Part shown: piece after piece, positions 888-61,954 of the stretch
How the letters are laid out: each line of letters starts with the position of its first letter
Position numbering within the stretch: the first letter of the stretch is position 1
Assembly (NCBI GenBank): GCA_964035575.1
Contig: OZ037835.1
Location: 744,001-808,000, forward strand
DNA: 64,000 bases
Reading direction: 5' to 3'
Source: Rhynchopus sp. YZ270_cl-10
Lineage: Eukaryota
Translations under genes and position numbers: made by a program
The notes under the pieces: generated by a model
The model's database searches: none
Seen by the model: only the letters and a program-made list of their open reading frames with translations
What the model was told of the DNA's origin: nothing

Positions 888-3800
888 TCAACACCATTCG
901 TCCTCGTCACTCTCTTCACATTCCTCAGAGTTTCCAAACTCCACTGTTCCCACTACGCCATAATTATAACTAAAACTGCGCTCATCACAAAGAATCCGTC
1001 TCGCAAGTTCAGGTTCCACAGCATCAGCATTGCGACAGCCAAATGTACAAGAAACTGTTGGAGGGACACCGATCACTCTCTTCAGCCGCAACCCATCAAT
1101 CCTGCCGTCTTCCCCAGTGCAGATCGTCCACACACGCACAGTGTTGTCCCGACAACTACAGATCACTTCGCGTCCATCAGGGATCACAGCAACGCTGTAC
1201 GAACCCCAATGTTCTTTTTGCACCACTATCTCTCCAGTGGTCATGCTCCACACAAGCATAGATAAGCGGGACGACGTCACCAAGTGAGCTCCATCAGGTG
1301 TCAGTGCCACGCCGTCGAGGAGAGCACCACATTCCAAGGTGAAGACCTCCCTCCCGCTGGCAACATCGCGCACACTCACATTCTCGTTCTCAGAGCCTGA
1401 AACAACACGAGACCCATCGCAAGTCACGGCTTCGCCTTTAAAGATTTGTTCAGCATCAAGTTTGCTGCTTTGCTGTAGAATGCAACCATTTTTGTATAAT
1501 CCTCCTTCAACTACCTGTGTCTGCCTGCCGGTGGATGCGTTCCAGATGGAGTACCCCTTGCCACCGTACGAAATGATAGATCCATCAGGGGACAGTGCCA
1601 CAGACTTTCCTGAGAGTCCTTCGAAACCTGGTGTCTCCTTCCCTGTCGTGATGATCAACACTCCAACACTAGTGTTGCTGGAGCATGAAACCACGTGGCA
1701 TCCATCTGGTGACACTGTAACTGCTGCCACTGAAGTACCAAAATACCCTACCAACACCGTCACCTCCTTCCCAGTCGAAATGCTCCAAACGTGCACAGTG
1801 CCTCTCTCGGATCCAGCAACGACGTGACATCCATCGGGAGTGACTGCCACTGATGTCAACTTGGCGTCGGCACGGAACACCATCACCTCTGCCCCAGTCG
1901 AGAGGTTCCAAAGATGTGCGTCATCAGAGCACGAAACAACATGGCATCCATCGGGAGTGACTGCTAGTGCATGCGAAGACTCCACACAACAAGGCCACTG
2001 CATCTCCTGCTTCCCCGTCACCAGATCCCATACGCACAGCACCTCCTGAGAGCATGTCACTATTTGACTTCCATCCTTGGTAATAACCATGCTGCGAATG
2101 CCAGGCGACTCCACTGCCAGCACTTCCTTCCTCGTCAAGATATCCCACACACGGACGCCGTCTTTAGCTTTATAAGTTGAAACAACTTTAGAACTGTCGG
2201 GAGTGACTGCCACTTCGTTCACCTTACCTTCGTGGCCTTCCAAGACGAACCCTGCCTCCCCAGTGTGCATATCCCACACACGCACAGTTTTGTCGTCAGA
2301 GCACGAAACTACGCGGCTTCCGTCAGGTGTTACTGCTACTCCATTGATGTACTCCGAATGTCCTTCCAAGACCATCACTTCTTCACCAGAAGACATGCTC
2401 CACACATGTACACTGCAGTCGTTGCCAACTGTAACGATTTGACTGCCATCAGGTGTGACTGCCACATCATTGGCATGATGCTGCAGTACAGGAAGTGGTG
2501 TGCCAAGGGAGCAGTCAGGCAGCATCGTGCCACCCATGTCGCAGGTGTGGAACTCAGTGTGCTCCAGCCAGCAGTTCGAGAAGGAAGCGCCCGTCAGCGC
2601 CGTCTCCACAAACAGAGACGCGCGCAGGTCGCAGTTCGACACACGGATCCCGCTCAGGTCCTCCCCACTCACAGGGATGCGTGCACGTGCCAGCAGTGCT
2701 GCTGCATTCGACCCTGCTGTCACAGCACCCTCCCCACCAACTACTGCATCTCCACCTGAACTGCCACGTGTCGCCTTCACAGCCGCAAGCAGCTCTGTGC
2801 AGGCACGTTCGTACAGCACACTGTCTCCACACACCAGCGCCGCAAAGAACCCAAGCACACGCTGCGAATCCTTGCTGAAGCTCCGCTGCACCAGCGTCCC
2901 CAGTGTCCCTGCTGGGTCACGTGCAAGCCGCCGTGCTGCAAGGTGCTCCCCAAGCGACTTGTGCCGGAACGTGAACGCACTCCGCTCTTCCCCAAAGTCC
3001 TCAATCCGGAACGGCAGGCAGCGGAAGCACGCATCCCGCACAGCCTCACACACACCGTGCTGCGAATCAAGAATCTGCGACGCCACACCCACAGTCCCCT
3101 GCCACTCGTTTGTCTCCAGCATCCTGCATGCAACAAGCTCCCCTGCACGCACCACATCCTCCAAAGACACATCCGAAACAGCAACAGCAACTCCACCAGA
3201 CGCCATCTCCTTCTTCGTCCACGTCTCCAGGTAGGCCTCGTAGATCACCTCCTCAGAAGCCTTCCCGCTGCACTGTGCGTGGCACGCCATGTGCAGCACA
3301 AACGGGTTCCGCAGCTGCACAAGTCCCTCAACGTCCTCCTCACGCACGAAGACTGTGCGCTCTCCATCCTTCTCCTTCTCCTTCCCCTTTTTGTGTTCCT
3401 TCTCCCAGGCTGTGTTTGCACGCTCGATGTACATTCTCGCATCCACCTCTGTGAACGGCTGCATGTACACAGCACGTACACCAGCACCACACACACCAGT
3501 CGGAGACGTGTCCACACCCTTCAGGTACTCACCACGCACAGTCACAACAACGCTGCAGTGTGCCTCCACCCACGGATGCCGGCACAGAAGGCCACCCTCA
3601 GCCACCACAGCACCCACATCCTCCTGCGTCAGCCCCACCTCGTCCAGCGAGTCCAGCACCAGCACCACCTCGTACGTCTCCGCAAGGTACGCACGGTCCG
3701 CCTCCCGCAGCGCAAACGACTCCAGCACAAACCTGTCCAGCCCTCCCTTCTCAAGCAGGTGCTGCTTCACAGTCGGCAGCGCCACAAACACAGGGAAGTA

Positions 3801-5918
3801 CAGCTTCGCATCCGCATCCGCAGTCACGTCACTCACCACGCTGTTTCTGTTCCTGTTCGTGTCTTCGTTGCTGGTGCTTTCGCTCTTCCTCGCAGACGTT
3901 GCAAGGTCGCTCAGAATTGCAATCGAAGCAGACGTCTTCCCGCTCCCTCCTTCTCCGATCACACACAGCACACCACACCTCCCTTGTCTTTCTTCTCTCG
4001 CATCCACATCAGGCTTGCGCTCTCTGCCCGCTGCTGCCTGTGTGCACTCGGAAGACATCTGCTTCCCACCTCCACCTCCACGTACACGTGCACGAAGCCA
4101 CCTCCGCACCTCCTCCATCAGCGGACGTGTCTCCGACTCATCCACACGTGTGTCGTCCCCCACACGCCCCTCCACGTACTGCGCAAGGTAGTCCTTGAAG
4201 AACGCGACTGTGTGTCCCATCACCTCCTGCAGCGCACCCACCTGCTCAGCCGCACTCGTCTCCCCCACACCCACACCAGAACACACCTCCTGCATCACAA
4301 TCACGTCAAAGCACAACCCCATCATCCGCAGCAACGTAGGCGAAAGCTTCCACTGCACCCGGTACTCGATGTTCGCTGTGTACAGCAGCTCGTCCTCCGA
4401 AGCATACACAGACGAGAACTTCACGTCTGCAGCACCCTCCTTCGCCACCACCACAAAGAACGCCCCACCCTTCCCGTACATGAAGCTCCGAGCCACATCC
4501 CGCTTCAGTGTTGTCGACGTGAAGCAGTTCCACACAATGTGCGTATTGAGAGCGTACTTCGCAGACACGTTCACATTGATCCCGCGGAACACAGTCCGCA
4601 GCTGCTTCCGACGGCTCCCAATCAGCCGGTCCAGACCACGGATCAGCGGCGCAAAGGTCGCAATCACGTGCAGCTGCGGGGGTGCGGGTGACAGCTCAAA
4701 CACGTTCAGTGCTGCCTTCTCAGGTGTCCCCTTCCACTCCTTCACTGCAGCCAGCTGCCCCACAGCACGCATCGCAGTGTTCATCGTCATGTACAGCGCA
4801 AGCGACTGTGAATCAGCTGCACTCCCGTGGTTGTCCAGCACAGCCCGCTCCGTCAGTCTGATGTACCGCAGCTTCCCGTCAGGCCCTTTTGCAATCTGCG
4901 GTGTCCCATCCTCGTCACACACAACATCCCCGCCGCTGTCCAGCACATACTCCACACAGTCAGACGTGAACAGGAACCCCGACAGCAGCAGCTCAAACGG
5001 GTCGCGTGCCGCCATCCAGTCCTCCACCTCCACGTGACCACCACGTGTCCCCGCAGCCTCCCTCCGTCCTCTCATGTCCTCCAGCAGACGCTTGCACACC
5101 ACACGGAACCCCGCCTCCATGTGCCGCACGTGTTCGTCTGTGTAGCCCAACGGCGGATCCACCTTTGGCAGACCACGCAGCCAGCACAGCAGGTCTTCAC
5201 CTCCATTGCTGTTCTTGTTGTTGTTGCTGTCGTCTGTTTTCCGCAGCCACTCCACCTTCCGTCCGTCTGTGTGCCGCAGTGCACCCGTGTCCCCGTCAAG
5301 ATCGTCCTCTCCCAGCTGTCTGTCTCCAGTCGAGGTGTTCGTGTCTTTCGCCATGTCCATGTGAGGGTCAGTAAGAGGTGCTGTCGTTGCATCTCCACTG
5401 CTCCGTTCCACACCCACACCTGTTGTTGTTGTTGTTGTTGTTCCTATTGCTGTTCTGGCGACACCGTGAGTGAGGTACACCTGCACAGCATCAGTCGAGG
5501 TGTTCGTGTCTTTCGCCATGTCCATGTGAGGGTCAGTAAGAGGTGCTGTCGTTGCATCAGCTGTTGCTGTTCTTGTTGTTGTTGTGACGACACCGTGAGT
5601 GAGGTACACCTGCACAGCATCCTCCACCTCCACAAGGATCTCTGCTGCATGCACCCCCAGCTCCGCCTCGAGTCGCCCCCGCACATCCGCGTCCCTGTGC
5701 TGCAGTGCGTACCACAGCGGCACCTTCCCGTCCCTGTCACGCACGTTCCCTGCCCCGTTCAAAACAAGAAACCGCACTGCCTCCACGTCCCCCGCAAGCA
5801 CGGCACTGTGCAGCATTGTCCTCCCGTCCACGCTGTCCACTGCGTCCACGGGCCTCTCCTTCCCAGTAATTCCCTTTGCAATCTCGTCCTTTTCAGGCTT
5901 CGACGCTCCGGATCCCAT
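888..5918 (-). CDS. NLR-like STAND protein copy A: myristoylation motif-ankyrin-ADP-ribosyltransferase-NACHT NTPase-pentapeptide-WD40 (1676 aa)
   Basis: MGSGAS start; ankyrin [21 protein letters not shown]...[12 protein letters not shown] motifs VFRG / FTSTT / SEDELL; Walker A GEGGSGKT; Walker [22 protein letters not shown] winged-helix-like motif; pentapeptide [27 protein letters not shown]; many VAVTPDG...VRVWD WD40 repeats. Confidence 0.9.
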   Translation of the reverse strand: MGSGASKPEKDEIAKGITGKERPVDAVDSVDGRTMLHSAVLAGDVEAVRFLVLNGAGNVRDRDGKVPLWYALQHRDADVRGRLEAELGVHAAEILVEVEDAVQVYLTHGVVTTTTRTATADATTAPLTDPHMDMAKDTNTSTDAVQVYLTHGVARTAIGTTTTTTTGVGVERSSGDATTAPLTDPHMDMAKDTNTSTGDRQLGEDDLDGDTGALRHTDGRKVEWLRKTDDSNNNKNSNGGEDLLCWLRGLPKVDPPLGYTDEHVRHMEAGFRVVCKRLLEDMRGRREAAGTRGGHVEVEDWMAARDPFELLLSGFLFTSDCVEYVLDSGGDVVCDEDGTPQIAKGPDGKLRYIRLTERAVLDNHGSAADSQSLALYMTMNTAMRAVGQLAAVKEWKGTPEKAALNVFELSPAPPQLHVIATFAPLIRGLDRLIGSRRKQLRTVFRGINVNVSAKYALNTHIVWNCFTSTTLKRDVARSFMYGKGGAFFVVVAKEGAADVKFSSVYASEDELLYTANIEYRVQWKLSPTLLRMMGLCFDVIVMQEVCSGVGVGETSAAEQVGALQEVMGHTVAFFKDYLAQYVEGRVGDDTRVDESETRPLMEEVRRWLRARVRGGGGGKQMSSECTQAAAGRERKPDVDAREERQGRCGVLCVIGEGGSGKTSASIAILSDLATSARKSESTSNEDTNRNRNSVVSDVTADADAKLYFPVFVALPTVKQHLLEKGGLDRFVLESFALREADRAYLAETYEVVLVLDSLDEVGLTQEDVGAVVAEGGLLCRHPWVEAHCSVVVTVRGEYLKGVDTSPTGVCGAGVRAVYMQPFTEVDARMYIERANTAWEKEHKKGKEKEKDGERTVFVREEDVEGLVQLRNPFVLHMACHAQCSGKASEEVIYEAYLETWTKKEMASGGVAVAVSDVSLEDVVRAGELVACRMLETNEWQGTVGVASQILDSQHGVCEAVRDACFRCLPFRIEDFGEERSAFTFRHKSLGEHLAARRLARDPAGTLGTLVQRSFSKDSQRVLGFFAALVCGDSVLYERACTELLAAVKATRGSSGGDAVVGGEGAVTAGSNAAALLARARIPVSGEDLSGIRVSNCDLRASLFVETALTGASFSNCWLEHTEFHTCDMGGTMLPDCSLGTPLPVLQHHANDVAVTPDGSQIVTVGNDCSVHVWSMSSGEEVMVLEGHSEYINGVAVTPDGSRVVSCSDDKTVRVWDMHTGEAGFVLEGHEGKVNEVAVTPDSSKVVSTYKAKDGVRVWDILTRKEVLAVESPGIRSMVITKDGSQIVTCSQEVLCVWDLVTGKQEMQWPCCVESSHALAVTPDGCHVVSCSDDAHLWNLSTGAEVMVFRADAKLTSVAVTPDGCHVVAGSERGTVHVWSISTGKEVTVLVGYFGTSVAAVTVSPDGCHVVSCSSNTSVGVLIITTGKETPGFEGLSGKSVALSPDGSIISYGGKGYSIWNASTGRQTQVVEGGLYKNGCILQQSSKLDAEQIFKGEAVTCDGSRVVSGSENENVSVRDVASGREVFTLECGALLDGVALTPDGAHLVTSSRLSMLVWSMTTGEIVVQKEHWGSYSVAVIPDGREVICSCRDNTVRVWTICTGEDGRIDGLRLKRVIGVPPTVSCTFGCRNADAVEPELARRILCDERSFSYNYGVVGTVEFGNSEECEESDEDEWC

Positions 5919-7144: not shown

Positions 7145-7265
7145 GAAAATATGGAAGGTGTGGAATTCCTCAACACTCCACCTTGGTAAAATGAAACAGC
7201 AAGAGACCCAAACTCGGGGAAAAGCAAAGTCGGAAATGAATAATGTACAGATGTGGAAGTGACAG
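7145..7265. repeat. Orphan copy of the NLR-gene 3' flanking sequence
   Basis: AAAATATGGAAGGTGTGGAATTCCTCAAC...AAAGCAAAGTCGGAAATGAATA matches ~14003-14125 downstream of copy B, but no NLR CDS is attached. Confidence 0.7.
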
Positions 7266-7807
7266 GCCACTCCGGTGCACAGGGTGCCTGTCACACCAAC
7301 AACACCATTAACAGTACCTTTCTTTCTTGTACAACAAACAACTATGACAACACCGCTTGCCGGCAGAGCAAGGAGCAACTAATACATTAGGCGTGGAAAC
7401 GCTTCAGAGAACACATACTACGGTGGGTCACTCATTAAGAACACAAAGAGAAATCCTTCTCATTTTACCTCAACAAGTAGAGCGGGTTTGCCAAGTGCTC
7501 TTCATTAGTGTCCACTGACCGACAGGAAAAAGAGGGTGTGTTTAATTTTTCCTTCCTTCAAAACTTCACAACGCTTTTGGTTATTGGGAGACACATCATA
7601 AAAGAAAAGATTGTAAGATGACCCTAAGCCTCTCGTGCTAGTTTGCCAACTCTACATTCATGATATCGTAAAACTCTTCGTGAACACCATTTGGTGTAGC
7701 TGAAGGGGGGGTGCTATTTTGTGCTATTTTGTAAAATTTTGGGGTCGGCCAGCCACACCACCATTTGTCATTTTGTTTGGACCAATAGCCCCCCTTTTAG
7801 TCTGCCG

Positions 7808-8390
7808 AGGTGCCAGGTTCTATGATATGCACGGAACCACCCTGCACCTGTTTGTCATATTGTTTCCCGTGCAATACATGGAGAAACGTTTCGCACTCGA
7901 AACTAGGGAAAGCTTTTTGATAAAAATTAGCGAAATACAAAAATCAGCGCGTGTGGAAGAAAAAAGGAGAGGAAAATATTTTATTACCTGGGAAATAAAG
8001 TTGTAGGTGGACTCGTGAAGAAAAAGTGCGACATAATCTGGACTTTAATCTGTAGAAGGGGCATAAAGTCTTTAAATACCTTGTTTATTTCCCCGATTTG
8101 TGTACCTGTTTTGTATGGAGTTTGTGAGAAAGGGGACAAAAAGTACTTTATTTCTGAATTTTCACTTTAAATCCTGAGTGCCAGGCATTGTGATGTTGCG
8201 TTGTGTTGATAAACCTATTATTTGCTTCTATATGTCACACTTTCTTGACGAGTCCACCTACAACTATATTTCCACGGTAATAAAATATTTTTTCTGACTC
8301 AAAGTGGTGTTTACGTTTTGGGTACGGGGCGGGGAATAAAATCTGTTCGATAAAAGAAACGCGAGCTTATTTGTTTTATCTTGTTCAGAA
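7808..8390 (+). repeat. Dispersed intergenic repeat family R1 (here interrupted by a MITE)
   Basis: Segments recur at ~365-440 (-), 42880-42918/44005-44127/47996-48170 (-), 54680-54840 (+) and 59140-59312 (+), e.g. GCGCGTGTGGAAGAAAAAAG and TTTTGGGTACGGGGCGG. Confidence 0.75.
7983..8281. mobile_element. MITE with ~50-bp imperfect TIRs inserted into R1
   Basis: ATTACCTGGGAAATAAAGTTGTAGGTGGACTCGT / ACGAGTCCACCTACAACTATATTTCCACGGTAAT, flanked both sides by palindromic AAAATATTTT (TSD length therefore ambiguous); empty site seen at ~59206. Confidence 0.75.
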
Positions 8391-8563
8391 AAAAATGCTC
8401 GAGAGACTCGTTCCTCTTTGCTTGTTGCTCAAAAGACTATATCTAAAAACGGGAGGGGGTGAAGTAAAGGCTGTTTGTTGTTCGCTTCCACACCACTTCT
8501 GTACTCAGATTCAAGTCTTTTGGCTGTCCTTACAAGCGCCTGCCAAAACGCTCGCCTCGTGGG

Positions 8564-9013
8564 CAGGCTATTTCCTAACTCTGGGGCGTTTTTGCCGAAA
8601 TTTAAAAGAAAGGCAAAAAAAGTGCGGTATTTTCCTGTGGCTTTTTCCCACCCAAGAGGGCGTTTTGTTGCATTTCCGAGCCAATCCCGGGTTGTGGTGC
8701 TTGTGGTTTCTTAAGGAAATCCTAGTAACGCGAGATCTCTGAAAACCTCGAAAACGAACCCCGCCGGGGGCGGATTCTTTTACACACGTGCGCGCAAAAA
8801 TACTTTTTTCTTGCTTATTTCGCACATTTGGAGCACGGGACCCCAACATTTTTTTCCTGGTCACTTTTTCCCAGACAGAAGTGCCCTACCTACCTTCCCC
8901 CTTAGGCGAAAAAAATGTGCGGCAACCGGGCAAATTTAGTCATGTAAAAAAAAGTGCGGCATTTCCAAAATCTCAAATCCGTATTTTGGGAGGCAGATTT
9001 AGGAAATAGCCTG
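8564..9013. mobile_element. Non-autonomous hAT-like element
   Basis: TIR CAGGCTATTTCCTAA / TTAGGAAATAGCCTG; 8-bp TSD CTCGTGGG at 8556-8563 and 9014-9021. Confidence 0.85.
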
Positions 9014-9743: not shown

Positions 9744-12374
9744 TCAGTGCAGAAGCACAACGTACGGTGCATAAGCCTTCTGCTCCACATAGCCGGCAAG
9801 CTCTTCGTACTGTGTGCGTTGGTCCTGAGCGACGGTGTCCAGCAGAGAAGACGCCTTCTCAAAGTCCTGTTTGATGATGTGCTCGAAGACCTCGTTCCAC
9901 ACTGCGTGCGGGTTGTTTGCGGCAGACTCCAGCTGGTACATCCACTCCTCGTTTTCGCTGCTGCACAGCCCACGTACGGTAAACACGGTCTGTGCCTTCT
10001 CGCTCAGCTTCTCGTACAGCATCGAGCCAGCACAACACAGTACCACCTGTCCCTCCGCCTCACGCGAAATGTTCTGGTCAACGACACCAGGGAGGTCACG
10101 CTGCTTGTTCCAACGCTCCATCACAACCACCCACGACATGGACTGCGAAAGAATCGACATCTTCTTCATCCCGTTGCAGCCCATGTTCCCGACACGTGCC
10201 TCGCCTGTCGTGCACCCGTACGAGATCTTGTGCACATCACCAAGTGCTGTTGCTGCTTCGTGTGCAGCCTTCACACAGGCAGCACTGTGCGACGGCTTCG
10301 GAACAAAGGCGTTGAAGGTGGCAAGCATCTTGTCCCCTGCGAACGTGTCGCACACACCTTTGTTGTGCTGCACTGATGACATGATGTGCTCCATAATACC
10401 ACCGTGTGCGGAGAGCACCTCTGCGTCCTTGTGCTTCTTGCAGAAGGCGTGCCACGACACGACGTTCATGTGTGCCAGCGACACCTTCTTCTTCTTCATC
10501 CCTTCCACACGCAGCAGTGCCTTCTGGTGCTGCAGCGTAACACCCGAATTGCGTGACGCACGTGAACTCTGTGACCCATGGGAATCCCGGGACTTGCCTG
10601 ACTGCGACTTCATAGTCGAAGATTCCGTCTCTGACACGTACTCTTTGTCGCTGTCGTTGACAAGCACACTCTGCGGCATGTAGTTCCGGTACTCCACCAG
10701 GTTCGCCACCATGGTAACAAAGCTGCGCTGCATCATCCCCACTTCACTCAGCTGCGACACTGCACGGCCCGTGTCCACAGCCTCCAGGTCCATCACAGCC
10801 ACACTTGCCATCTCACTCCCAAGCTTCAGCAGAGGGGACGTGATGTAGCGTGTGAACACAACAGCAATGGCCAGGAGTACCGTGATCGCAATGACCGTCA
10901 CAACCACCATCACAATCACCGCATCCTCCTTCTGTGCGTCTGCAGAGGACAAATCTGATGCCACCTTCGCACGGATTGCATTCGTCGACGCATCAATTGT
11001 CTCCATCACAGACACCCTCGGCACAAGAAGGTTCGCGAATAATGTAATCGTTTTGTGTTGAATTGTCGTTGCCACTGTCCAGAACTCCGTGCCGTTCGAG
11101 TCAGACCACTTCAGGAACGACGTCTTTGTCATCTCCACAAGGTCTCTGTAGTTCTGTGGGTGTGTGAACACAAACCGCCCATGCTCTGCAATCACTGAGG
11201 GGATGTGCAACGTGGCGTCTTCCGTTGAGTGGTTCGTGATGTTAAAGCCGTACGCGACTATGGTAGGAGTACCCCAGGGAGTTACAGAAGGCTCCACCCG
11301 TATATGCCTTCCTCTGTTGTACGCGACAACTGTTCCCGTTGAGTCATCTAAAGGATTGTACTCCACCAGGTACAGCGACGTGCCGGCTGGGAGCAGCTGT
11401 GCACGCACTGCCTTCGTTATCCCGTCTCCAGTCACCGTTGCCATCATAACACCCACACGCTTGCCCTGCTTGGGGTGCATCGTGTACATCTCTGGGTGGG
11501 TGTAGGTGTAGCTCAGCTCCCAGTACATCATGTCCCACCGCACCATCACGTTTGTGTAGATCAGTGTCTCCGTGGGGTACATGGGTGGGTCATCGGCACC
11601 CAGGTTGTAGATCTGCTTGCCACGGTCTAGCTGCAATGGCGTGCCCACAGGCTCGCTTTGATCCATGGGAAATATGCAGACACCACGCCACTGTCCCTTG
11701 TTGTAGTCTGGGTAGAAGTTGCACGGCTGATGTGGGAACCTTCTGTCGCCTCTGTTCGTGGCTTCCCCGTAGGACACCCAGTCAGATATACCCACCGCCC
11801 CCGTCACATGGTCACGCATCTCGTACACCAGGAGGACCTGGGAGCCGTTCGTCGGAGGGACACCACTCGCAGAGTTCACATCCCTGAACGCCATCCGCGA
11901 GCCCCACCCTGCAAACCCGTCTCCCCTCTTCCACGGAACAGGATGTGCTGGGGACCACGGGTACGTTTCGTACCTAATCGCTTCCAATCCAGACGTCGCC
12001 CCAGCACGAAAAGCGGAGATCAAAGCAGGGCGCATAACCGTATCCCCAAAGGCGGGGCTCGTGCTGACGTTTGGGTGGTGCGCCTTCGCAAGGTTGGCCA
12101 GAGATACCACCAGCTGCTCAGGCACCTTCAGGTACTCCTTCACTGCAGTGTCCACGTTGCCAAGGACGGAGCGCAGGTAGCGCGACGAGACCGTTTCGAT
12201 GTCCGCCGTACCACTGTCGAGACACATCCCGAAGCCCTCATCACCTGTGTCACGTGCCTTCTCCAGAAGGTCGTCCCATGTTGTCAGAGTGAAGCCACCG
12301 ATGATCGCACCTGTCGACAGAATCAACACCACACACAGCAGCACTGTCAGCGACTGGATGCTGCATGTCGCCAT
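9744..12374 (-). CDS. Receptor-type class III nucleotidyl cyclase-like protein (TM-extracellular-TM-HAMP-degenerate cyclase), 876 aa
   Basis: Two hydrophobic segments; HAMP-like ITSPLLKLGSEMASVA...LSEVGMMQRSFVTM; cyclase-like CDTFAGDKMLATF and YGCTTGEARVGNMG. Confidence 0.8.
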   Translation of the reverse strand: MATCSIQSLTVLLCVVLILSTGAIIGGFTLTTWDDLLEKARDTGDEGFGMCLDSGTADIETVSSRYLRSVLGNVDTAVKEYLKVPEQLVVSLANLAKAHHPNVSTSPAFGDTVMRPALISAFRAGATSGLEAIRYETYPWSPAHPVPWKRGDGFAGWGSRMAFRDVNSASGVPPTNGSQVLLVYEMRDHVTGAVGISDWVSYGEATNRGDRRFPHQPCNFYPDYNKGQWRGVCIFPMDQSEPVGTPLQLDRGKQIYNLGADDPPMYPTETLIYTNVMVRWDMMYWELSYTYTHPEMYTMHPKQGKRVGVMMATVTGDGITKAVRAQLLPAGTSLYLVEYNPLDDSTGTVVAYNRGRHIRVEPSVTPWGTPTIVAYGFNITNHSTEDATLHIPSVIAEHGRFVFTHPQNYRDLVEMTKTSFLKWSDSNGTEFWTVATTIQHKTITLFANLLVPRVSVMETIDASTNAIRAKVASDLSSADAQKEDAVIVMVVVTVIAITVLLAIAVVFTRYITSPLLKLGSEMASVAVMDLEAVDTGRAVSQLSEVGMMQRSFVTMVANLVEYRNYMPQSVLVNDSDKEYVSETESSTMKSQSGKSRDSHGSQSSRASRNSGVTLQHQKALLRVEGMKKKKVSLAHMNVVSWHAFCKKHKDAEVLSAHGGIMEHIMSSVQHNKGVCDTFAGDKMLATFNAFVPKPSHSAACVKAAHEAATALGDVHKISYGCTTGEARVGNMGCNGMKKMSILSQSMSWVVVMERWNKQRDLPGVVDQNISREAEGQVVLCCAGSMLYEKLSEKAQTVFTVRGLCSSENEEWMYQLESAANNPHAVWNEVFEHIIKQDFEKASSLLDTVAQDQRTQYEELAGYVEQKAYAPYVVLLH

Positions 12375-14348: not shown

Positions 14349-17300
14349 TCACTTCTCGACATCACAAAGAATCCGTCTCGCAAGTTCAGGTTCCACAGCA
14401 TCAGCATTGCGACAGCCAAATGCACGAGGAACTGTTGGAGCGACACCGATCACTCTCTTCAGCCGCAACCCATCAATCGTCCCGTCTTCCCCAGTGCAGA
14501 TGCTCCACACTCGCACAGTGTGGTCCTCGCAACTGCAGATTGCTTCGCGTCCATCGGGGCTCACAGCAAGACTGCGCAAACGACAATGTGCCCTGATCAC
14601 TGCGAGCTCCTCACCAGTGGTCATGCTCCACACACTCACACCGTACGCACTCGACACCACGTGAGTTTCATCGGGTGTCAGTGCCACTCCGAACACGCTA
14701 CTATCATGCTGCAAGGTGAAGACTTCCTTCCCGCTGGCAACATCCCACACACGCACGGTCGAATCAGCAGAGCACGAAACAAGACGAGAGACATCGCGAG
14801 TCACGGCCAAGCCGGTGACACCATAAGTAGTATGTCCTTCGAACGCCATCGTCTCTTCTCCAGTGTGAAGTTTCCACATGCGTACGGTCTGATCAGCAGA
14901 GCACGAGACCACATGCACTCCATCAGGAGTCACTACTTGGGGACGGGAGGTAGTTCCTGCATATTCTGACACCTTCTTCCCAGTCGGCATGCTCCACACA
15001 TACGTATGGTAAGTGTTTTTCTCCTGTGAAGACTGTGAACAGGTCACCACGTGAGATGCATCGGGAGACACTGCTAAGGAATGCAGTCTCCCACACTGTT
15101 TCAAGAACACCGCCAACTCACTGGAATCTGTGCACAAAGGCGGCACTTTCCCTGTCGTAACGTCCCACACACACGCTCTCTGTTCTCCAGCGTCGTCGCA
15201 ACAGCAATAAACTACGTGAGAACCATCTGGGTACACGGCAGCAGCATCATCACCATATTTATTTACTGCTGCTTCAACTACCTCTGTCTGCCTGCCGGTG
15301 GATGAGTTCCAGATGGAGTTCCTCTTGCCACCATACGAAATGATAGATCCATCACGACCCACTGCCACAGACTTTCCTGAGAGTCCTTCGAAACCTGGTG
15401 CCTCCTTCCCGGTGGTGATGTTCCAAACTCGCACGGTGCTGTCGGAGCGTGAGCATGAAACCACATGGCATCCATCTGGTGTTACTGCCACTGCCTTGAC
15501 CCCTCTAGTATGTCCTTGCAACGCCATCACCTCCTTCCCAGTCGAAATGCTCCAAACGTGCACATCGCCGCTGTAGGATCCAGCAACCACGTGACATCCA
15601 TCGGGAGTAACTGCCACTGCTGTCAACAACTCATCGTCAGCATGGAACACCATCACCTCTGCCCCAGTCGAGAGGTTCCAAAGGTGTGCGCCATCACAGC
15701 ACGAAACAACATGGCATCCATCGGGAGTGACCGCCAGTTGACGCGGAAGCTTCGAACAGCAAGGCCACTGCATCTCCTGCTTCCCTGTCACCAGATCCCA
15801 TACGCACAGAACCTCCTTCGAGCATGTTACTATTTGACTTCCATCCTTCGTAACAACCATGCTGTAAATACCAGGCGACTTCACCGCCAGCACTTCCTTC
15901 CCCGTCGCGAGATCCCACACACGGATGTCCTGAGGAGAAGTTGAAACAACTTTAGAACTGTCGGGAGTGACTGCCACCTGTCGCACCCCAGCTATGTGTC
16001 CTTTCAAGACGAACACTGCCTCCCCAGTGTGCATATCCCACACACGCACAGTTTTGTCAGAGGGGCACGAAACTACGCGGCTTCCGTCAGGTGAAACTGC
16101 CACGCCAGCGATTAGCGCAGTATTACCTTTCGAGACCATCACTTCTTCCCCAGAAGACATGCTCCACACATGTACTCTGAAGTCACGGCCACCTGTCACC
16201 ATATGACTACCATCATGTGTAACTATCACATCCTCAGCATCGTGCTGCAGTACAGGAAGTGGTGTACCAAGTGAGCAGTCAGGCAGCATCGTGCCACCCA
16301 TGTCGCAGGTGTGGAACTCAGTGTGCTCCAGCCAGCAGTTCGAGAAGGAAGCGCCCGTCAGCGCCGTCTCCACAAACAGAGACCCACGCAGGTCGCAGTT
16401 CGACACACGGATCCCGCTCAGGTCCTCCCCACTCACAGGGATGCGTGCACGTGCCAGCAGTGCTGCTGCATTCGACCCTGCTGTCAGAGTACTATCACCA
16501 GGAACAACTGCACCTGAACTGCCACGTGTCGCCTTCATAACCGCAAGCAGCTCTGTGCAGGCACGTTCGTACAACACACTGTCTCCACACACCAGCGCCG
16601 CAAAGAACCCAAGCACACGCTGCGAGTCCTTGCTGAAGCTCCGCTGCACCAGCGTCCCCAGTGTCCCTGCTGGGTCACGTGCAAGCCGCCGTGCTGCAAG
16701 GTGCTCCCCAAGCGACTTGTGCCGGAACGTGAACGCACTCCGCTCTTCCCCAAAGTCCTCAATCCGGAACGGCAGGCAGCGGAAGCACGCATCCCGCACA
16801 GCCTCACACACACCGTGCTGCGAATCAAGAATCTGCGACGCCACACCCACAGTCCCCTGCCACTCGTTTGTCTCCAGCATCCTGCATGCAACAAGCTCCC
16901 CTGCACGCACCACATCCTCCAAAGACACATCCGAAACAGCAACAGCAACTCCACCAGACGCCATCTCCTTCTTCGTCCACGTCTCCAGGTAGGCCTCGTA
17001 GATCACCTCCTCAGAAGCCTTCCCGCTGCACTGTGCGTGGCACGCCATGTGCAGCACAAACGGGTTCCGCAGCTGCACAAGTCCCTCAACGTCCTCCTCA
17101 CGCACGAAGACTGTGCGCTCTCCATCCTTCTCCTTCCCCTCTTTGTGTTCCTTCTCCCAGGCTGTGTTTGCACGCTCGATGTACGTTCTCGCATCCACCT
17201 CTGTGAACGGCTGCATGTACACAGCACGCACACCAGCACCACACACACCAGACGGAGACGTGTCCACACCCTTCAGGTACTCACCACGCACAGTCACAAC

Positions 17301-19505
17301 AACGCTGCAGTGTGCCTCCACCCACGGATGCCGGCACAGAAGGCCACCCTCAGCCACCACAGCACCCACATCCTCCTGCGTCAGCCCCACCTCGTCCAGC
17401 GAGTCCAGCACCAGTACCACCTCGTACGTCTCCGCAAGGAACGCACGGTCCGCCTCCCGCAGCGCAAACGACTCCAGCACAAACCTGTCCAGCCCTCCCT
17501 TCTCAAGCAGGTGCTGCTTCACAGTCGGCAGCGCCACAAACACAGGGAAGTACGGCTTCGCATCCGCATCCGCAGTCACGTCACTCACCACGCTGTTTCT
17601 GTTCCTGTTCGTGTCTTCGTTGCTGGTGCTTTCGCTCTTCCTCGCAGACGTTGCAAGGTCGCTCAGAATTGCAATCGAAGCAGACGTCTTCCCGCTCCCT
17701 CCTTCTCCGATCACACACAGCACACCACACCTCCCTTGTCTTTCTTCTCTCGCATCCACATCAGGCTTGCGCTCTGTGCCGGCTGCTGCCTGTGTGCACT
17801 CGGAAGACATCTGCTTCCCACCTCCACGTGCACGAAGCCACCTCCGCACCTCCTTCATCAGCGGACGTGTCTCCGACTCATCCACACGTGTGTCGTCCCC
17901 CACACGCCCCTCCACGTACTGCGCAAGGTAGTCCTTGAAGAACGCGACTGTGTGTCCCATCACCTCCTGCAGCGCACCCACCTGCTCAGCCGCACTCGTC
18001 TCCCCCACACCAGCACCCTCACCCACACCAGCACACACCTCCTGCATCACAATCACGTCAAAGCGCAGCCCCATCATCCGCAGCAACGTCGGCGACAGCT
18101 TCCACTGCACCCGGTACTCGATGTTCGCTGTGTACAGCAGCTCGTCCTCCGAAGCATACACAGACGAGAACTTCACGTCTGCAGCACCCTCCTTCGCCAC
18201 CACCACAAAGAACGTCCCACCCTTCCCGTACATGAAGCTCCGAGCCACATCCCGCTTCAGTGTTGTCGACGTGAAGCAGTTCCACACAATGTGCGTATTA
18301 AGAGCGTACTTCGCAGACACGTTCACATTGATCCCGCGGAACACAGTCCGCAGCTGCTTCCGACGGCTCCCAATCAGCCGGTCCAGACCACGGATCAGCG
18401 GCGCAAAGGTCGCAATCACGTGCAGCTGCGGGGGTGCGGGTGACAGCTCAAACACGTTCGGTGCTGTCTTCTCAGGTGTCCCCTTCCACTCCTTCACCGC
18501 AGCCAGCTGCCCCACAGCACGCATCGCAGTGTTCATCGTCATGTACAGCGCAAGCGACTGTGATTCCACATCAGCAGCACTCCCGTGGTTGTCCAGCACA
18601 GCCCGCTCCGTCAGTCTGATGTACCGCAGCTTCCCGTCAGGCCCTTTCGCAATCTGCGGTGTCCCGTCCTCGTCACACACAACATCCCCGCCGCTGTCCA
18701 GCACATACTCCACACAGTCAGACGTGAACAGGAACCCCGACAGCAGCAGCTCAAACGGGTCGCGTGCCGCCATCCAGTCCTCCACCTCCACGTGCCCACC
18801 ACGTGTCCCCGCAGCCTCCCTCCGTCCTCTCATGTCCTCCAGCAGACGCTTGCACACCACACGGAACCCCGCCTCCATGTGCCGCACGTGTTCGTCTGTG
18901 TAGCCCAACGGCGGATCCACCTTTGGCAGACCACGCAGCCAGCACAGCAGGTCTTCACCTCCATTGCTGTTGTTGTTGTTGTTTGTGTGATCCTCCTTCC
19001 GCAGCCACTCCACCTTCCGTCCGTCTGTGTGCCGCAGTGCACCTATGTCCCCGTCAAGATCGTCCTCTCCCAGCTGTCTGTCACCTGTCGAGGTGTTCGT
19101 GTCTTTCGCCATGTCCATGTGAGGGTCAGTGAGAGGTGCTGTCGTTGCATCACCTGTTGCTGTTGTTGTTGTGGCGACACCGTCAGTGAGGTACACCTGC
19201 ACAGCATCCTCCACCTCCACAAGGATCTGTGCTGCATGCACCCCCAGCTCCGCCTCAAGTCGCCCCCGCACATCCGCGTCCCTGTGCTGCAGTGCGTACC
19301 ACAGCGGCACCTTCCCGTCCCTGTCACGCACGTTCCCTGCCCCGTTCAAAACAAGAAACCGCACTGCCTCCACGTCCCCCGCAAGCACAGCACTGTGCAG
19401 CATTGTCCTCCCGTCCACGCTGTCCACTGCGTCCACGGGCCTCTCCTTCCCAGTAATTCCCTTTGCAATCTCGTCCTTTTCAGGCTTCGATGCTCCGGAT
19501 CCCAT
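14349..19505 (-). CDS. NLR-like ANK-ART-NACHT-pentapeptide-WD40 protein copy B (1718 aa)
   Basis: Same motifs as copy A; longest WD40 region of the three. Confidence 0.9.
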   Translation of the reverse strand: MGSGASKPEKDEIAKGITGKERPVDAVDSVDGRTMLHSAVLAGDVEAVRFLVLNGAGNVRDRDGKVPLWYALQHRDADVRGRLEAELGVHAAQILVEVEDAVQVYLTDGVATTTTATGDATTAPLTDPHMDMAKDTNTSTGDRQLGEDDLDGDIGALRHTDGRKVEWLRKEDHTNNNNNSNGGEDLLCWLRGLPKVDPPLGYTDEHVRHMEAGFRVVCKRLLEDMRGRREAAGTRGGHVEVEDWMAARDPFELLLSGFLFTSDCVEYVLDSGGDVVCDEDGTPQIAKGPDGKLRYIRLTERAVLDNHGSAADVESQSLALYMTMNTAMRAVGQLAAVKEWKGTPEKTAPNVFELSPAPPQLHVIATFAPLIRGLDRLIGSRRKQLRTVFRGINVNVSAKYALNTHIVWNCFTSTTLKRDVARSFMYGKGGTFFVVVAKEGAADVKFSSVYASEDELLYTANIEYRVQWKLSPTLLRMMGLRFDVIVMQEVCAGVGEGAGVGETSAAEQVGALQEVMGHTVAFFKDYLAQYVEGRVGDDTRVDESETRPLMKEVRRWLRARGGGKQMSSECTQAAAGTERKPDVDAREERQGRCGVLCVIGEGGSGKTSASIAILSDLATSARKSESTSNEDTNRNRNSVVSDVTADADAKPYFPVFVALPTVKQHLLEKGGLDRFVLESFALREADRAFLAETYEVVLVLDSLDEVGLTQEDVGAVVAEGGLLCRHPWVEAHCSVVVTVRGEYLKGVDTSPSGVCGAGVRAVYMQPFTEVDARTYIERANTAWEKEHKEGKEKDGERTVFVREEDVEGLVQLRNPFVLHMACHAQCSGKASEEVIYEAYLETWTKKEMASGGVAVAVSDVSLEDVVRAGELVACRMLETNEWQGTVGVASQILDSQHGVCEAVRDACFRCLPFRIEDFGEERSAFTFRHKSLGEHLAARRLARDPAGTLGTLVQRSFSKDSQRVLGFFAALVCGDSVLYERACTELLAVMKATRGSSGAVVPGDSTLTAGSNAAALLARARIPVSGEDLSGIRVSNCDLRGSLFVETALTGASFSNCWLEHTEFHTCDMGGTMLPDCSLGTPLPVLQHDAEDVIVTHDGSHMVTGGRDFRVHVWSMSSGEEVMVSKGNTALIAGVAVSPDGSRVVSCPSDKTVRVWDMHTGEAVFVLKGHIAGVRQVAVTPDSSKVVSTSPQDIRVWDLATGKEVLAVKSPGIYSMVVTKDGSQIVTCSKEVLCVWDLVTGKQEMQWPCCSKLPRQLAVTPDGCHVVSCCDGAHLWNLSTGAEVMVFHADDELLTAVAVTPDGCHVVAGSYSGDVHVWSISTGKEVMALQGHTRGVKAVAVTPDGCHVVSCSRSDSTVRVWNITTGKEAPGFEGLSGKSVAVGRDGSIISYGGKRNSIWNSSTGRQTEVVEAAVNKYGDDAAAVYPDGSHVVYCCCDDAGEQRACVWDVTTGKVPPLCTDSSELAVFLKQCGRLHSLAVSPDASHVVTCSQSSQEKNTYHTYVWSMPTGKKVSEYAGTTSRPQVVTPDGVHVVSCSADQTVRMWKLHTGEETMAFEGHTTYGVTGLAVTRDVSRLVSCSADSTVRVWDVASGKEVFTLQHDSSVFGVALTPDETHVVSSAYGVSVWSMTTGEELAVIRAHCRLRSLAVSPDGREAICSCEDHTVRVWSICTGEDGTIDGLRLKRVIGVAPTVPRAFGCRNADAVEPELARRILCDVEK

Positions 19506-20623
19506 CTTCCTGATGTGTTGTGTAACTATTCACAGAGGTTGCTGTGTTGTCCCTGTTCGTGTGTTGTGTTGTGGTGATGTGATGTGTTCAGCAGCACCCA
19601 AGCAGAGAGTCCTGCATGCAAAACGCATCACCCTCCCTACCCTTCCTGGTAACGGCACATACGCGACCCTCCACACACCGTGCAGACACCACCTCTCCAC
19701 TGGTCGCCAGCACCTCCTCGGTAGTGCTCCACCTGTCAAGGACGCGGAAAAATCCCACCCCAAATATTCTCATTTTTAATGTTGATGGTGCTGTGCACAG
19801 TGTACCTGAGCCAGTCCACGCAAATGTGCTTTGCTGCTCTTCGTGTTGTGATGTGTGCGTAGAACAGTGTTCCTCCTTCTCCAGCCAATGTGCACGTAAG
19901 TGCAAAGCATCGCAAGATGAAAAAGGAACAACGAAAAAGGTTGTCAAGATGAACCCAAGCCTTTCGTGCTTCGTCAACATGAAGAATATTAGCAGTCCCG
20001 AAGAAAGCAACAAAACAGTTATGCCAAATACTGCGAGGCTAGCAGGTTACAAAAGACAACAAGGTTGCAGACACGTACATGCACTGCACACACACACACA
20101 CCCAGCAAAAGACTCCCATCCAAACTATTCATTTTCAAAAAAACAAAACATCCCTTCTTCACAACACCACCAACACCAACACCAACACAACACTGACAGG
20201 CGGCAATAGGAGAGAAGAGTGTGGAATTGCAAGGCTCCACCTTGGTAAAAGTGAAAGAGCAATAGCTACAAACTGCAGGAAAAAAGCAAAGTCGGAAATG
20301 AATAGTGTACAGATGTGGAAGTGGCAGTGTGTGTCACTCCAAAAAACCAAGTGGTCAAGCACAAACTAACGTAAAACAACCACAAAACAAACAGAACACA
20401 TGTGTAATCGCAACACATCTTGGAAAAGACGTGTGAATATGAAGAGACACAACATGGCAGTGTAACACCGCGGCAAGCCGCGTTTCTGTCCTCGCACAAC
20501 GCACCCGCAGTGGCATGAGGGCACCACCGCACGAGGCAGTGTCAACACCATTCGTGCTCGTCACTCAGACTGCATTCGTCTTGGAAAAGAGGCAAACACA
20601 AAGAGCAAGTACGAACAACGCAC

Positions 20624-23600
20624 TCACTCCTCACTCGAAAAAAGAATCCGTCTCGCAAGTTCAGGTTCCACAGCATCAGCATTGCGACAGCCAAATGCAC
20701 GTGGAACTGTTGGAGGGACACCGATCACTCTTTTCAGCCGCAACCCATCAATCGTCCCGTCTTCCCCAGTGCAGATGGTCCACACACGTACAGTCTTGTC
20801 GTCGCAATCACAGAATACTTCGCGTCCATCGGGGCTCACAGCAAGACTGCGCAAATGATGCAACGACCCATAGGGGCACTCAGCAATACTAGACGAAGAA
20901 CAATGCCCTTGAATCCCTGCCACCTGCTCACCAGTGGTCATGCTCCACACACGCACATACGTAGTACCGCCATCAGTGCACGACACCACGTGACCTCCAT
21001 CAGGTGTGATTGCCATTCCGCTCAGCCTGCCAGATTGCTGCCAGTTGAAGACCTCCTTCCCGCTGCCAGCATCCCACACACGCACAGCTTCCTTACAGTA
21101 TGCAACAACACGAGACCCATCGGGAGTCACAGCCACACCTCGGACATGAGAAGTAAGCCCTTTGAACACTATCGTCTCTTCTCCAGTGTGCAGTTTCCAC
21201 ATGCGTACGGTCTTGTCAGCAGAGCACGAAACCACATGCACTCCATCAGGACACACTACCACTCCATAGGCAGAGCGTGTGTGTCCTGTAAATACTGCCA
21301 CCTCCTTCCCAGTCGTCAGGTTCCATACAGAAACACTAGAGAACGTCTCAGAACACATCGCAATGTGAGATGCATCGGGAGACACTGACGCGGACGCCGG
21401 TCCACGGCCTCTCAAGAACAGCGCAAACTCAACGGAAGCTGGGCATAACGTCACTTCTTTCCCCGTCGCAACGTTCCACACATGCACTTCGCTAGCGTAG
21501 AAGGAAGAGGAATCAACGAAATAATATCCATCTGGGAACACCGTCACAGCAAAACGTTTATGTGTGTCTGGTTCATACTCACAGCATGAAACAACGTGGC
21601 ATCCATCGGGAGTGACTGCAAGTGTATGCCAATCCTCCTCAGAGCAAGGCAACTGCCTCTCCTGCTTCCCCGTCACCAGATCCCATACGCACAGCACCTC
21701 CTCAGAGCATGTCACAATGTGACTTCCATCCTTCGTAAGAACCATGCTGTAAATGCCGGGAAAATTTATAGACAGCACTTCCTTCCCCGTCGAGAGATCC
21801 CACACACGGATGCCGTCCTTATGAGAAGATGAAACAACTTTATAACTGTCGGGAGTGACTGCCACTTCGGTCACATCGTTATGTCCCTCCAAGACGAACA
21901 CTGCCTCCCCAGTGTGCATATCCCACACACGCACAGTATTGTCAGCAGAGCAGGAAACTATGCGCTTTCCATCTGGTGTCATTGCTACTGCAAATACACG
22001 AGTCTCATCGCTGTAAGTCCTATGCCCTTCCAAGACCATCACTTCTTCACCAGAAGACATGCTCCACACATGAATGGTTCCATCAGAGCAACCTGTCACC
22101 ATTTGACAGCCATCAGGTGCCACTGCTACAACAAGGGCACAATGCTGCAGTACAGGAAGTGATACGCCAAATGAGCAGTCAGGCAGCATCGTGCCACCCA
22201 TGTCGCAGGTGTTGAACTCAGTGTACTCCAGCCAGCAGTTCGAGAAGGAAGCGCCCGTCAGCGCCGTCTCCACAAACAGAGACCCGCGCAGGTCGCAGTT
22301 CGACACACGGATCCCGCTCAGGTCCTCCCCACTCACAGGGATGCGTGCACGTGCCAGCAGTGCTGCTGCATTCGACCCTGCTGTCACAGCACCCTCCCCA
22401 CCACCATCTTCACCTGCACCTGAACTGCCACGTGTCGCCTTCACAGCCGCAAGCAGCTCTGTGCAGGCACGTTCGTACAGCACACTGTCTCCACACACCA
22501 GTGCCGCAAAGAACCCAAGCACACGCTGCGAGTCCTTGCTGAAGCTCCGCTGCACCAGCGTCCCCAGTGTCCCTGCTGGGTCACGTGCAAGCCGCCGTGC
22601 TGCAAGGTGCTCCCCAAGCGACTTGTGCCGGAACGTGAACGCACTCCGCTCCTCCCCAAAGTCCTCAATCCGGAACGGCAGGCAGCGGAAGCACGTATCC
22701 CGCACAGCCTCACACACACCGTGCTGCGAATCAAGAATCTGCGACGCCACACCCACAGTCCCCTGCCACTCGTTTGTCTCCAGCATCCTGCATGCAACAA
22801 GCTCCCCTGCACGCACCACATCCTCCAAAGACACATCCGAAACAGCAACAGCAACTCCACCAGACGCCATCTCCTTCTTCGTCCACGTCTCCAGGTAGGC
22901 CTCGTAGATCACCTCCTCAGAAGCCTTCCCGCTGCACTGTGCGTGGCACGCCATGTGAAGCAAAAACGGGTTCCGCAGCTGCACAAGTCCCTCAACGTCC
23001 TCCTCACGCACGAAGACTGTGCGCTCTCCATCCTTCTCCTTCTCCTTCTCCTTCCCCTCTTTGTGTTCCTTCTCCCAGGCTGTGTTTGCACGCTCAATGT
23101 ACGTTCTCGCATCCACCTCTGTGAACGGCTGCATGTACACAGCACGCACACCAGCACCACACACACCAGACGGAGACGTGTCCACACCCTTCAGGTACTC
23201 ACCACGCACAGTCACAATAACGCTGCAGTGTGCCTCCACCCACGGATGCCGGCACAGAAGGCCACCCTCAGCCACCACAGCACCCACATCCTCCTGCGTC
23301 AGCCCCACCTCGTCCAGCGAGTCCAGCACCAGCACCACCTCGTACGTCTCCGCAAGGAACGCACGGTCCGCCTCCCGCAGCGCAAACGACTCCAGTACAA
23401 ACCTGTCCAGCCCTCCCTTCTCAAGCAGGTGCTGCTTCACAGTCGGCAGCGCCACAAACACAGGGAAGTACGGCTTCGCATCCGCATCCGCATCCGCATC
23501 CGCATCCGCATCCGCATCCGCATCCGCATCCGCATCCGCATCCGCATCCGCATCCGCATCCGCATCCGCATCCGCATCCGCATCCGCATCCGCATCCGCA

Positions 23601-61872: not shown

Positions 61873-61954
61873 GCAATACCCATGCGGCGAGGTTTTGCTC
61901 TCGCGAGTCAGGTGCAAAAACGCTTTTCGTACGTGTGTTTCCACAGGGTTCTAC

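What the first reader, a model, noticed from the sequence alone, without database searches (positions are those of the whole stretch)
1000..22170. WD40 sensor halves are hypervariable at specific loop positions while the ART-NACHT half is almost invariant
Seen (WD40 regions ~1000-2490, 14400-16260, 20680-22170): homologous blades differ mainly just after the GH dipeptide and after the S-C-S strand. Examples A/B/C: GHSEYING / GNTALIAG / [21 protein letters not shown] / GHIAGVRQ / GHNDVTE; STYKAKDG / STSPQD / SSSHKDG; CCVESSHA / CCSKLPRQ / CSEEDWHT. Framework residues and the ~1100 upstream residues are nearly unchanged. Established: Podospora HNWD genes are positively selected at comparable top-face WD40 positions that set specificity. 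Inference: diversifying selection on ligand recognition.
Basis: partly seen in the sequence, partly recalled or inferred. Interest (0 to 1): 0.8.

Follow-up and report, generated by a model that had tools for sequence, protein, structure and literature searches.

The report
Hypervariable NLR-like receptors in a diplonemid
Three neighbouring genes, likely from a single-celled marine flagellate (a diplonemid), belong to a family of about 60 near-identical copies whose predicted sensing surface differs in almost every copy and shows positive selection, which makes them a likely immune-receptor repertoire predicted to switch on an ADP-ribosylating enzyme.

Summary
The three ORFs are ankyrin–ART(R-S-E)–NACHT-like–pentapeptide–WD40 genes. 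In 59 close copies, 82 of 593 WD40 columns but 0 of 1051 N-half columns have entropy ≥2 bits. Of the 82, 73 lie in the d-a and b-c loops, as in Podospora HNWD. Codon models on the three window genes give dN/dS 1.7–4 at these sites against neighbouring-codon dS (p 0.004–1e-4). With a free dS for that class it is 1.5 and not significant.

The invariant N-half is mostly homogenisation, not purifying selection: its dS is 7-fold lower, dN/dS about 0.6, and non-coding flanks differ by only 2–6%. Synonymous differences also peak beside the variable codons, fitting selection against gene conversion, or local mutagenesis.

It is not an HNWD: blades within a gene are ≤58% alike and there is no HET domain. 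Nine of 11 named relatives are diplonemids. Immune role and ART activity are inferred.

The parts
888..5918 (-). Gene A (1676 aa, =P0002): ANK 5685-5885, ART 4356-4670, NACHT-like 2682-3971, pentapeptide 2505-2660, WD40 1089-2501 (11 blades; 9-11 missing in frame)
14349..19505 (-). Gene B (1718 aa, =P0001): full 14-blade member
18108..18422 (-). ART domain of B with R389, S413 and E453-x-E455 (R-S-E type)
   Evidence: Pfam PF01129 E 1.3e-6, 28.3 bits above cut-off 22.3; motifs
16446..17723 (-). NACHT-like STAND NTPase of B (Walker A at 600, Walker B at 700, winged-helix motif at 927)
   Evidence: own Pfam NACHT hit below cut-off; relatives above it; motifs
16269..16424 (-). Pentapeptide repeat of B
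14466..16265 (-). WD40 region of B: 14 predicted blades (two propellers), hypervariable d-a and b-c loops; island of raised synonymous divergence
   Evidence: model pLDDT 85
20624..25915 (-). Gene C (1763 aa): ART 24482-24796, NACHT-like 22346-24103, WD40 20741-22165 (about 11 blades; second propeller of a divergent subtype)
23477..23948 (-). Perfect 6-nt repeat, 78.7 copies, giving a 156-residue (AD)n insertion between Walker A and Walker B of C; absent from the other 58 copies
19506..20623 (-). Non-coding spacer: 3' flank of C plus upstream region of B; the upstream part is 97.8% identical to the upstream region of C
61340..61873 (-). Remnant fourth copy: last blade, C-terminal tail (61664-61873) and 3' flank only

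Best explanation
These are members of an expanded family of NLR-like (STAND) proteins, likely of a diplonemid, whose 14-blade WD40 sensor has positively selected loops on what is predicted to be the ligand-binding top face, and which likely act as intracellular non-self receptors that switch on an N-terminal ADP-ribosyltransferase. Shown: the architecture, about 60 close copies, hypervariability confined to d-a and b-c loops with a nearly unique residue set per copy, dN/dS above 1 there, and a 7-fold lower synonymous divergence outside the WD40 region. Inferred, evolution: recombination or gene conversion among copies keeps the enzyme half, the flanks and much of the WD40 framework uniform, while selection for distinct specificities rejects conversions that cross the loops, leaving narrow peaks of older divergence in which point changes accumulate independently in each copy. 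Inferred from known STAND biology, function: ligand binding to the propellers relieves autoinhibition, the NTPase oligomerises, and clustered ART domains ADP-ribosylate a host or invader target, likely near a membrane (MG-x-x-x-S start, a recalled myristoylation signal). The likely driver is viruses or intracellular bacteria.
For: Architecture. Family size and site pattern: (58 different residue sets at the 34 top sites among 59 copies; median pairwise identity 9%). Selection: 4.1 with dS shared across WD40; 1.8 for 79 codons, p 0.004, and 4.1 for 34 codons, p 1e-4, against adjacent codons; still significant with double mutations; register-only 1.7, p 0.004; 0 of 60 null simulations reach it; bottom-face control 0.65. 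Homogenisation: dS 0.039 vs 0.27; flanks 2-6%; sharp step at the first blade and drop in the tail; among 44 core copies linkage in the N-half decays from r2 0.37 to 0.03, and same-contig copies are closer in the N-half (2.9 vs 4.5%) but hardly in WD40 (19.5 vs 20.4%); C, P0005 and P0008 group with contig neighbours in the N-half tree (0.98) but with P0054 and P0057 in the second-propeller tree (0.97). Divergence peak: codon columns with a synonymous difference are 35 of 114 at 1-3 codons from a variable site, 20 of 103 at 4-6, 9 of 102 at 7 or more, 22 of 796 in the N-half; this is the pattern described for selection under gene conversion (PMC3924837, passages). R-S-E and NTPase motifs are intact in 64 of 66 close hits and in relatives at about 40% identity.
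Against: DNA was available for only three copies, and A and C are atypical (10% and 16% from the consensus framework against 2-7% for 44 core copies; each lacks about three blades). If the variable class gets its own dS, that dS is 3.5-fold higher (p 4e-6) and dN/dS falls to 1.5, p 0.11; only the 34 most variable codons stay above 1 (p 0.03 and 0.0006 under two frequency models, the second fit unstable). With A and B alone, blades 1-7, p is 0.058. Loop indels make alignment uncertain. Faces were assigned from repeat register and predicted secondary structure, not from coordinates. The ART model is low-confidence (pLDDT 59) and matched no structure. The genes' own NACHT score is below the Pfam cut-off. 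No ligand, activity, expression or phenotype was tested. That all 59 copies come from one assembly rests on shared contig lengths.
Confidence: 0.66

Rival explanations
1. Local mutagenesis: the family is young everywhere, and a mutational process focused on short patches at the top-face loops (clustered error-prone repair or templated micro-conversion) supplies both synonymous and non-synonymous changes, with selection acting on top.
For: Synonymous differences peak within about 3 codons of variable sites; class dS is 3.5-fold higher; 95 of 167 codon pairs at variable sites differ at two or three bases; no linkage even between adjacent WD40 residues (r2 0.034 vs baseline 0.024). Plant hvNLRs also show raised synonymous diversity, read as a possible higher mutation rate (PMC11093987, passages).
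Against: No special spectrum at four-fold sites (transitions:transversions 14:13 near loops, 9:7 in the N-half; small numbers); no out-of-register donor found within the window; the fitted double-mutation rate falls to 0.02 once positive selection is allowed; the N-half independently shows recombination, so conversion is available as an explanation.
Confidence: 0.17
2. Relaxed constraint plus conversion only: exposed loops drift neutrally (dN/dS about 1), and lower similarity simply stops conversion there; no selection for new specificities.
For: The free-dS fit is not significantly above 1; blades 8-14 neighbours have dN/dS 0.9; A and C have blade deletions, a remnant copy exists, and several hits end early in the WD40 region, so some copies may be decaying.
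Against: The equally exposed bottom loops hold 0 of 140 variable columns and have dN/dS 0.65; local-dS, blind and register-only tests reject 1; the pattern repeats in all 14 blades (3-10 variable sites each).
Confidence: 0.1
3. Selected sensors with a non-immune job: the receptors discriminate kin or mating partners, prey, or internal signalling partners, not pathogens.
For: Podospora HNWDs act in allorecognition (PMC1805685, passages); a neighbouring cyclase-like receptor family is also hypervariable in its ectodomain, so diversified sensing is not unique to this family.
Against: These proteins are predicted to be cytosolic in a cell not known (recalled) to fuse vegetatively; a conflict-type effector and one specificity per copy fit an arms race.
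Confidence: 0.15

Closest known systems
Podospora anserina HNWD/NWD family (het-d, het-e, het-r)
   Same: NACHT plus WD40 layout; selected positions in the d-a loop and b-c turn on the propeller top (PMC1805685; positions 10, 11, 12, 14, 30, 32, 39 in PMC12222747), matching the register found here.
   Different: HNWD repeats are 80-100% identical within a gene and are shuffled, while the genes' other domains diverge. Here blades within a gene are at most 58% alike (mean 37%), each blade keeps its position, 50 of 59 copies have 14 blades, and it is the enzyme half that is homogenised. ART plus ankyrin instead of HET; about 60 copies instead of about 10.
Zebrafish NLR-B30.2 family
   Same: Large clustered NLR family; NACHT homogenised by gene conversion, C-terminal recognition domain under positive selection (PMC4852459, passages). 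Closest evolutionary parallel.
   Different: Animal; LRR-B30.2 sensor with low synonymous divergence attributed to conversion across groups. Here a WD40 sensor with raised synonymous divergence, an enzymatic N-terminal effector, and a unicellular host.
Plant highly variable NLRs (hvNLRs)
   Same: Meets the entropy criterion numerically (10 or more positions above 1.5 bits; PMC11093987): 98 such columns among 44 core copies; raised synonymous diversity too.
   Different: The criterion was defined on alleles across accessions, here it is applied to paralogues; WD40 instead of LRR; NACHT-like instead of NB-ARC.
Diplonema papillatum KAJ9461234.1 'putative WD repeat-containing protein' and transcriptome proteins of Lacrimia lanifica, 'Hpha' and Flectonema neradi
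   Same: Homologous over ART and NTPase (29-41% identity); R-S-E and Walker A motifs intact in the D. papillatum, 'Hpha' and two L. lanifica proteins.
   Different: Annotated only as WD-repeat proteins or unnamed; expansion and selection in those species were not tested.
Apaf-1
   Same: STAND NTPase with tandem WD40 propellers; among fold matches of the WD40 model.
   Different: Single conserved gene, NB-ARC, CARD effector, one fixed ligand (recalled).

Membership tests
NLR-like STAND receptors | Effector–STAND NTPase–superstructure repeat architecture | tested here: met
NLR-like STAND receptors | NACHT-class NTPase (Pfam score or motifs) | tested here: inconclusive
   Own hit 15.3 bits vs cut-off 26.7; Walker A, Walker B and winged-helix motifs (recalled definitions) present; relatives P0068, P0071 and P0157 carry PF05729
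NLR-like STAND receptors | Ligand-triggered oligomerisation and effector activation | not testable with these tools
   needs biochemistry
Podospora HNWD | N-terminal HET domain | tested here: not met
   N-terminal part gives ankyrin and ART only
Podospora HNWD | High internal conservation of WD40 repeats (80-100%; over 85% over 100 aa in PMC4986451) | tested here: not met
   maximum 58%, mean 37% between blades of B; longest exact out-of-register DNA match 20 nt
Podospora HNWD | Positive selection at d-a loop and b-c turn positions | tested here: met
   weaker if the class has its own dS
Podospora HNWD | Role in allorecognition cell death | not testable with these tools
   no phenotype data
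R-S-E (ARTC) ADP-ribosyltransferases | R, S-T-S-like and E-x-E motifs in order | tested here: met
   Pfam ART above cut-off; motifs in 64 of 66 close hits
R-S-E (ARTC) ADP-ribosyltransferases | ART fold | tested here: inconclusive
   model pLDDT under 50 over the catalytic part, no structural match
R-S-E (ARTC) ADP-ribosyltransferases | NAD+-dependent transfer activity | not testable with these tools
   needs assay
Highly variable NLRs (entropy definition) | 10 or more positions above 1.5 bits | tested here: met
   98 WD40 columns and 1 N-half column among 44 core paralogues; paralogues, not alleles

The most novel reading that the evidence does not exclude
A unicellular marine eukaryote carries a germline-encoded repertoire of about 60 one-specificity-per-gene ADP-ribosylating immune receptors, and diversifies it with a mutational mechanism aimed at patches of a few codons on the WD40 top-face loops while conversion keeps the rest of each gene uniform: an antibody-like diversifier outside animals.
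Probability: 0.15. Interest if true: 0.92.

Novelty: new variant of a known kind. Interest (0 to 1): 0.7.

Why it matters
Selected, hypervariable NLR repertoires are described for plants, animals and filamentous fungi; a fungal survey links NLR presence to multicellularity (PMC4986451, passage). A repertoire of this kind in a likely diplonemid would show the same arms-race signature in a single-celled discoban, with an effector (ART) that is not named in the main text of the two fungal NLR surveys checked. The family has a homologue in D. papillatum, described as the group's model species (title), so whether such protists have receptor-based innate immunity becomes testable by infection, knock-out and loop-swap experiments. 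It is also a clean case of codon-scale divergence peaks under gene conversion.

Tried and rejected
No genome was held for the window and no sequencing-run data were obtained, so codon tests rest on three genes and expression is unknown. The first codon fits had badly optimised null models; their p-values were discarded and redone. A first tree run timed out. AU tests reject congruence of the three trees, but the trees are star-like and overfit, so only well-supported clades were used. Blade shuffling as in HNWD was rejected: no long out-of-register matches, no WD40 linkage, and only 6 of 1711 pairs share a run of 6 or more variable residues. A search for templated donors of the loop patches within the window found none; the few high scores were judged artefacts of skipped insertion columns or masked alignment. 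Purifying selection as the main cause of N-half invariance was rejected, though long-term motif conservation shows some. GC at four-fold sites is higher in the N-half (0.63 vs 0.44-0.47), which would fit GC-biased conversion, but other window genes span 0.46-0.72, so it was not used. ART fold search and PDB sequence search gave nothing usable; PADLOC had no match; the Atlas search and the wide structural search returned no answer. The scan's earlier findings held nothing. Paper searches found no description of this family (titles and abstract starts only), and the main text of the D. papillatum genome paper has none of WD40, NACHT, ADP-ribosyl or immun-; its supplements were not read and could list these genes, and subscription journals are not covered.
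Full report
What is there. The stretch holds three intronless minus-strand ORFs: A 888-5918, B 14349-19505 and C 20624-25915. A remnant of a fourth lies at 61340-61873. Pfam on pieces of B gives ankyrin, ART (E 1.3e-6, above cut-off), a weak STAND/NACHT hit (below cut-off), pentapeptide repeats and WD40. The ART has R389, S413 and E453-x-E455; the NTPase has Walker A, Walker B and a winged-helix motif (motif definitions recalled). All six motifs checked are intact in 64 of the 66 closest hits. An AlphaFold model of B's last 698 residues (pLDDT 85) shows a pentapeptide solenoid and 14 four-stranded blades and matches tandem WD40 propellers. The ART model was unreliable.

Family and host. A search with B's first 1090 residues gave 72 hits, 60 of them at 81-100% identity on contigs of 0.3-1.7 Mb. 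I analysed A, B, C and 56 others, leaving out two truncated hits (P0025, P0033), one rearranged (P0047) and 11 distant ones. Twenty-five share one contig length and eight the window's; that they all come from one assembly is inferred from such lengths, which recur in the neighbouring gene family. A wider search found 215 representatives. Of 21 distant relatives looked up, 11 carried a name and 9 of these are diplonemids: Lacrimia lanifica 5, Flectonema neradi 2, Diplonema papillatum 1, and one labelled 'Hpha', which I read as Hemistasia. The other two are Papus and Pigoraptor (placements recalled). The host is therefore likely a diplonemid.

The observation. The quoted loops are present as written. 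In the 56 other copies, 82 of 593 WD40 columns reach 2 bits and 34 reach 3 bits, against 0 of 1051 upstream. By repeat register and predicted secondary structure, 73 of 82 and 33 of 34 lie in the d-a loop or b-c turn, and none in the 140 columns of the a-b and c-d loops. The peaks are 1, 2, 3 and 5 residues after the GH position and on either side of the b-c aspartate. Podospora's selected codons lie in these same two loops (PMC1805685, passages; PMC12222747, passages). At the 34 top sites there are 58 different residue sets among 59 copies, with median pairwise identity 9%. Caveats: A and C lack about three blades each and are further from the consensus than the 44 core copies; C alone has a perfect (AD)n insertion.

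Selection. Codon likelihood models were run on A, B and C, with site classes defined from the other 56 copies. With dS shared across WD40, dN/dS is 0.32, 1.25 and 4.1 for low, middle and high entropy sites. But dS is not uniform: the high class prefers a 3.5-fold higher dS (p 4e-6), and then dN/dS is 1.5 (p 0.11); only the 34 most variable codons remain above 1. Using the adjacent codons as the local clock gives 1.8 (79 codons, p 0.004) and 4.1 (34 codons, p 1e-4), or 1.6 (p 0.03) and 4.1 with double-nucleotide mutations. A blind M1a/M2a test gives 10% of codons at about 13 (p 7e-9; 4e-5 with double mutations), and nothing in the N-half. Positions picked by register alone give 1.7 (75 codons, p 0.004; 0 of 60 null simulations as high); the two halves of the WD40 region give p 0.03 and 0.05, A and B alone p 0.058, and a bottom-face control 0.65. 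Positive selection is supported; its size lies somewhere between about 1.7 and above 4.

Why the N-half is invariant. Its synonymous tree length is 0.039 against 0.27 for the WD40 framework, and its dN/dS is 0.58 against 0.46. The step is sharp at the first blade and falls again in the tail. Non-coding flanks differ by 2.2% (B/C upstream, 688 nt) and 3-6% (3' flanks); A's upstream region is unrelated beyond about 60 nt. Among 44 core proteins, linkage between minor variants decays with distance in the N-half (r2 0.37 to 0.03) and is absent in WD40; same-contig copies are closer only in the N-half. Supported clades conflict between the halves. So the half-versus-half contrast reflects recent shared ancestry of the enzyme half, as in zebrafish NLR-B30.2 genes (PMC4852459, passages), not mainly constraint.

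The unexpected part. Within WD40, synonymous differences peak beside the variable codons: 35 of 114 columns at 1-3 codons, 20 of 103 at 4-6, 9 of 102 at 7 or more (p 7e-5), 22 of 796 in the N-half. The simplest reading is selection rejecting conversions that cross a specificity loop, which leaves divergence peaks (PMC3924837, passages). Local mutagenesis predicts the same with three sequences; no odd spectrum and no donor in the window were found, but the numbers are small. Misalignment near loop indels may add to the peak.

How it likely works. By analogy with known STAND receptors (recalled): the propellers hold the NTPase inactive, a ligand bound on the variable face releases it, oligomers form and the ART modifies a target. 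Fifty-eight of 59 copies begin MG-x-x-x-S, a recalled myristoylation signal, so action at a membrane is likely. One specificity per gene and a conflict-type enzyme point to pathogens or symbionts; none of this was tested.

Comparison. It works like HNWD at the level of positions but is not one: no HET domain, blades at most 58% alike within a gene against 80-100%, fixed blade order, and homogenisation of the opposite half. Two distant relatives on short contigs (P0068, P0069) have more uniform repeats (mean 56-60%, maximum 79-83%) varying at the same positions, so the wider family may span both modes. It meets the hvNLR entropy criterion numerically (PMC11093987, passages). Seven paper searches (listings only) showed no description of this family; the D. 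papillatum genome paper's main text lacks the terms (supplements not read); 'ADP-ribos' is absent from the main text of two fungal NLR surveys (PMC4986451; PMC13449251; term search and passages).

Verdict. A real, selected, hypervariable NLR-like repertoire with an ART effector in a likely diplonemid: a new variant of a known kind, interest 0.7.

Noticed in passing
window 9744-12377 (-), partial copy 62606-64000: Two-transmembrane receptor with HAMP-like and degenerate cyclase-like parts (no Pfam hit itself; relatives carry PF00211 and PF00672). 72 hits. Among 55 aligned, 90 of 454 ectodomain columns have entropy >=2 bits against 0 of 55 HAMP and 5 of 261 cyclase columns: a second hypervariable receptor family on the same contigs. 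The window's second copy appears frameshifted. No dN/dS was run.
   Followed up: partly
window 48686-50152 and 59509-60633 (-): Two genes with BspA-type LRRs behind what looks by eye like a ubiquitin-like N-terminus; 75-nt repeats. A distant hit (P0172) joins the same ART type to BspA LRRs. Possibly another sensor family.
   Followed up: no
window 26573-39595 (-): Intronless 4340-codon ORF with signal-like start, Ser/Thr-rich N-terminus and hydrophobic C-terminus; no Pfam match. Ends about 650 nt upstream of gene C.
   Followed up: no
window 23477-23948: Perfect 6-nt repeat of 78.7 copies inside gene C's NTPase, in frame; unique among 59 copies; recent expansion or assembly artefact.
   Followed up: partly
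P0047 and P0063 (contig length 185426): Rearranged relatives: one with repeated winged-helix–pentapeptide–WD40 blocks in tandem (2932 aa), one with a WD40 block in front of the ANK–ART–NTPase half; signs of unequal crossing-over in the family.
   Followed up: no
P0068, P0069 (contigs of 10 and 20 kb): Distant ART–NACHT–WD40 relatives with near-HNWD-like uniform repeats that vary at the same loop positions.
   Followed up: partly
window 51115-52956 (-): HSP70 gene.
   Followed up: no
window 44510-45424 and 46563-47998: Simple tandem arrays (9- and 5-nt units) and a 406-nt unit in 3.5 copies at 99% identity; short dispersed repeats near 7800-8500, 44000, 48000, 54700 and 59200.
   Followed up: no
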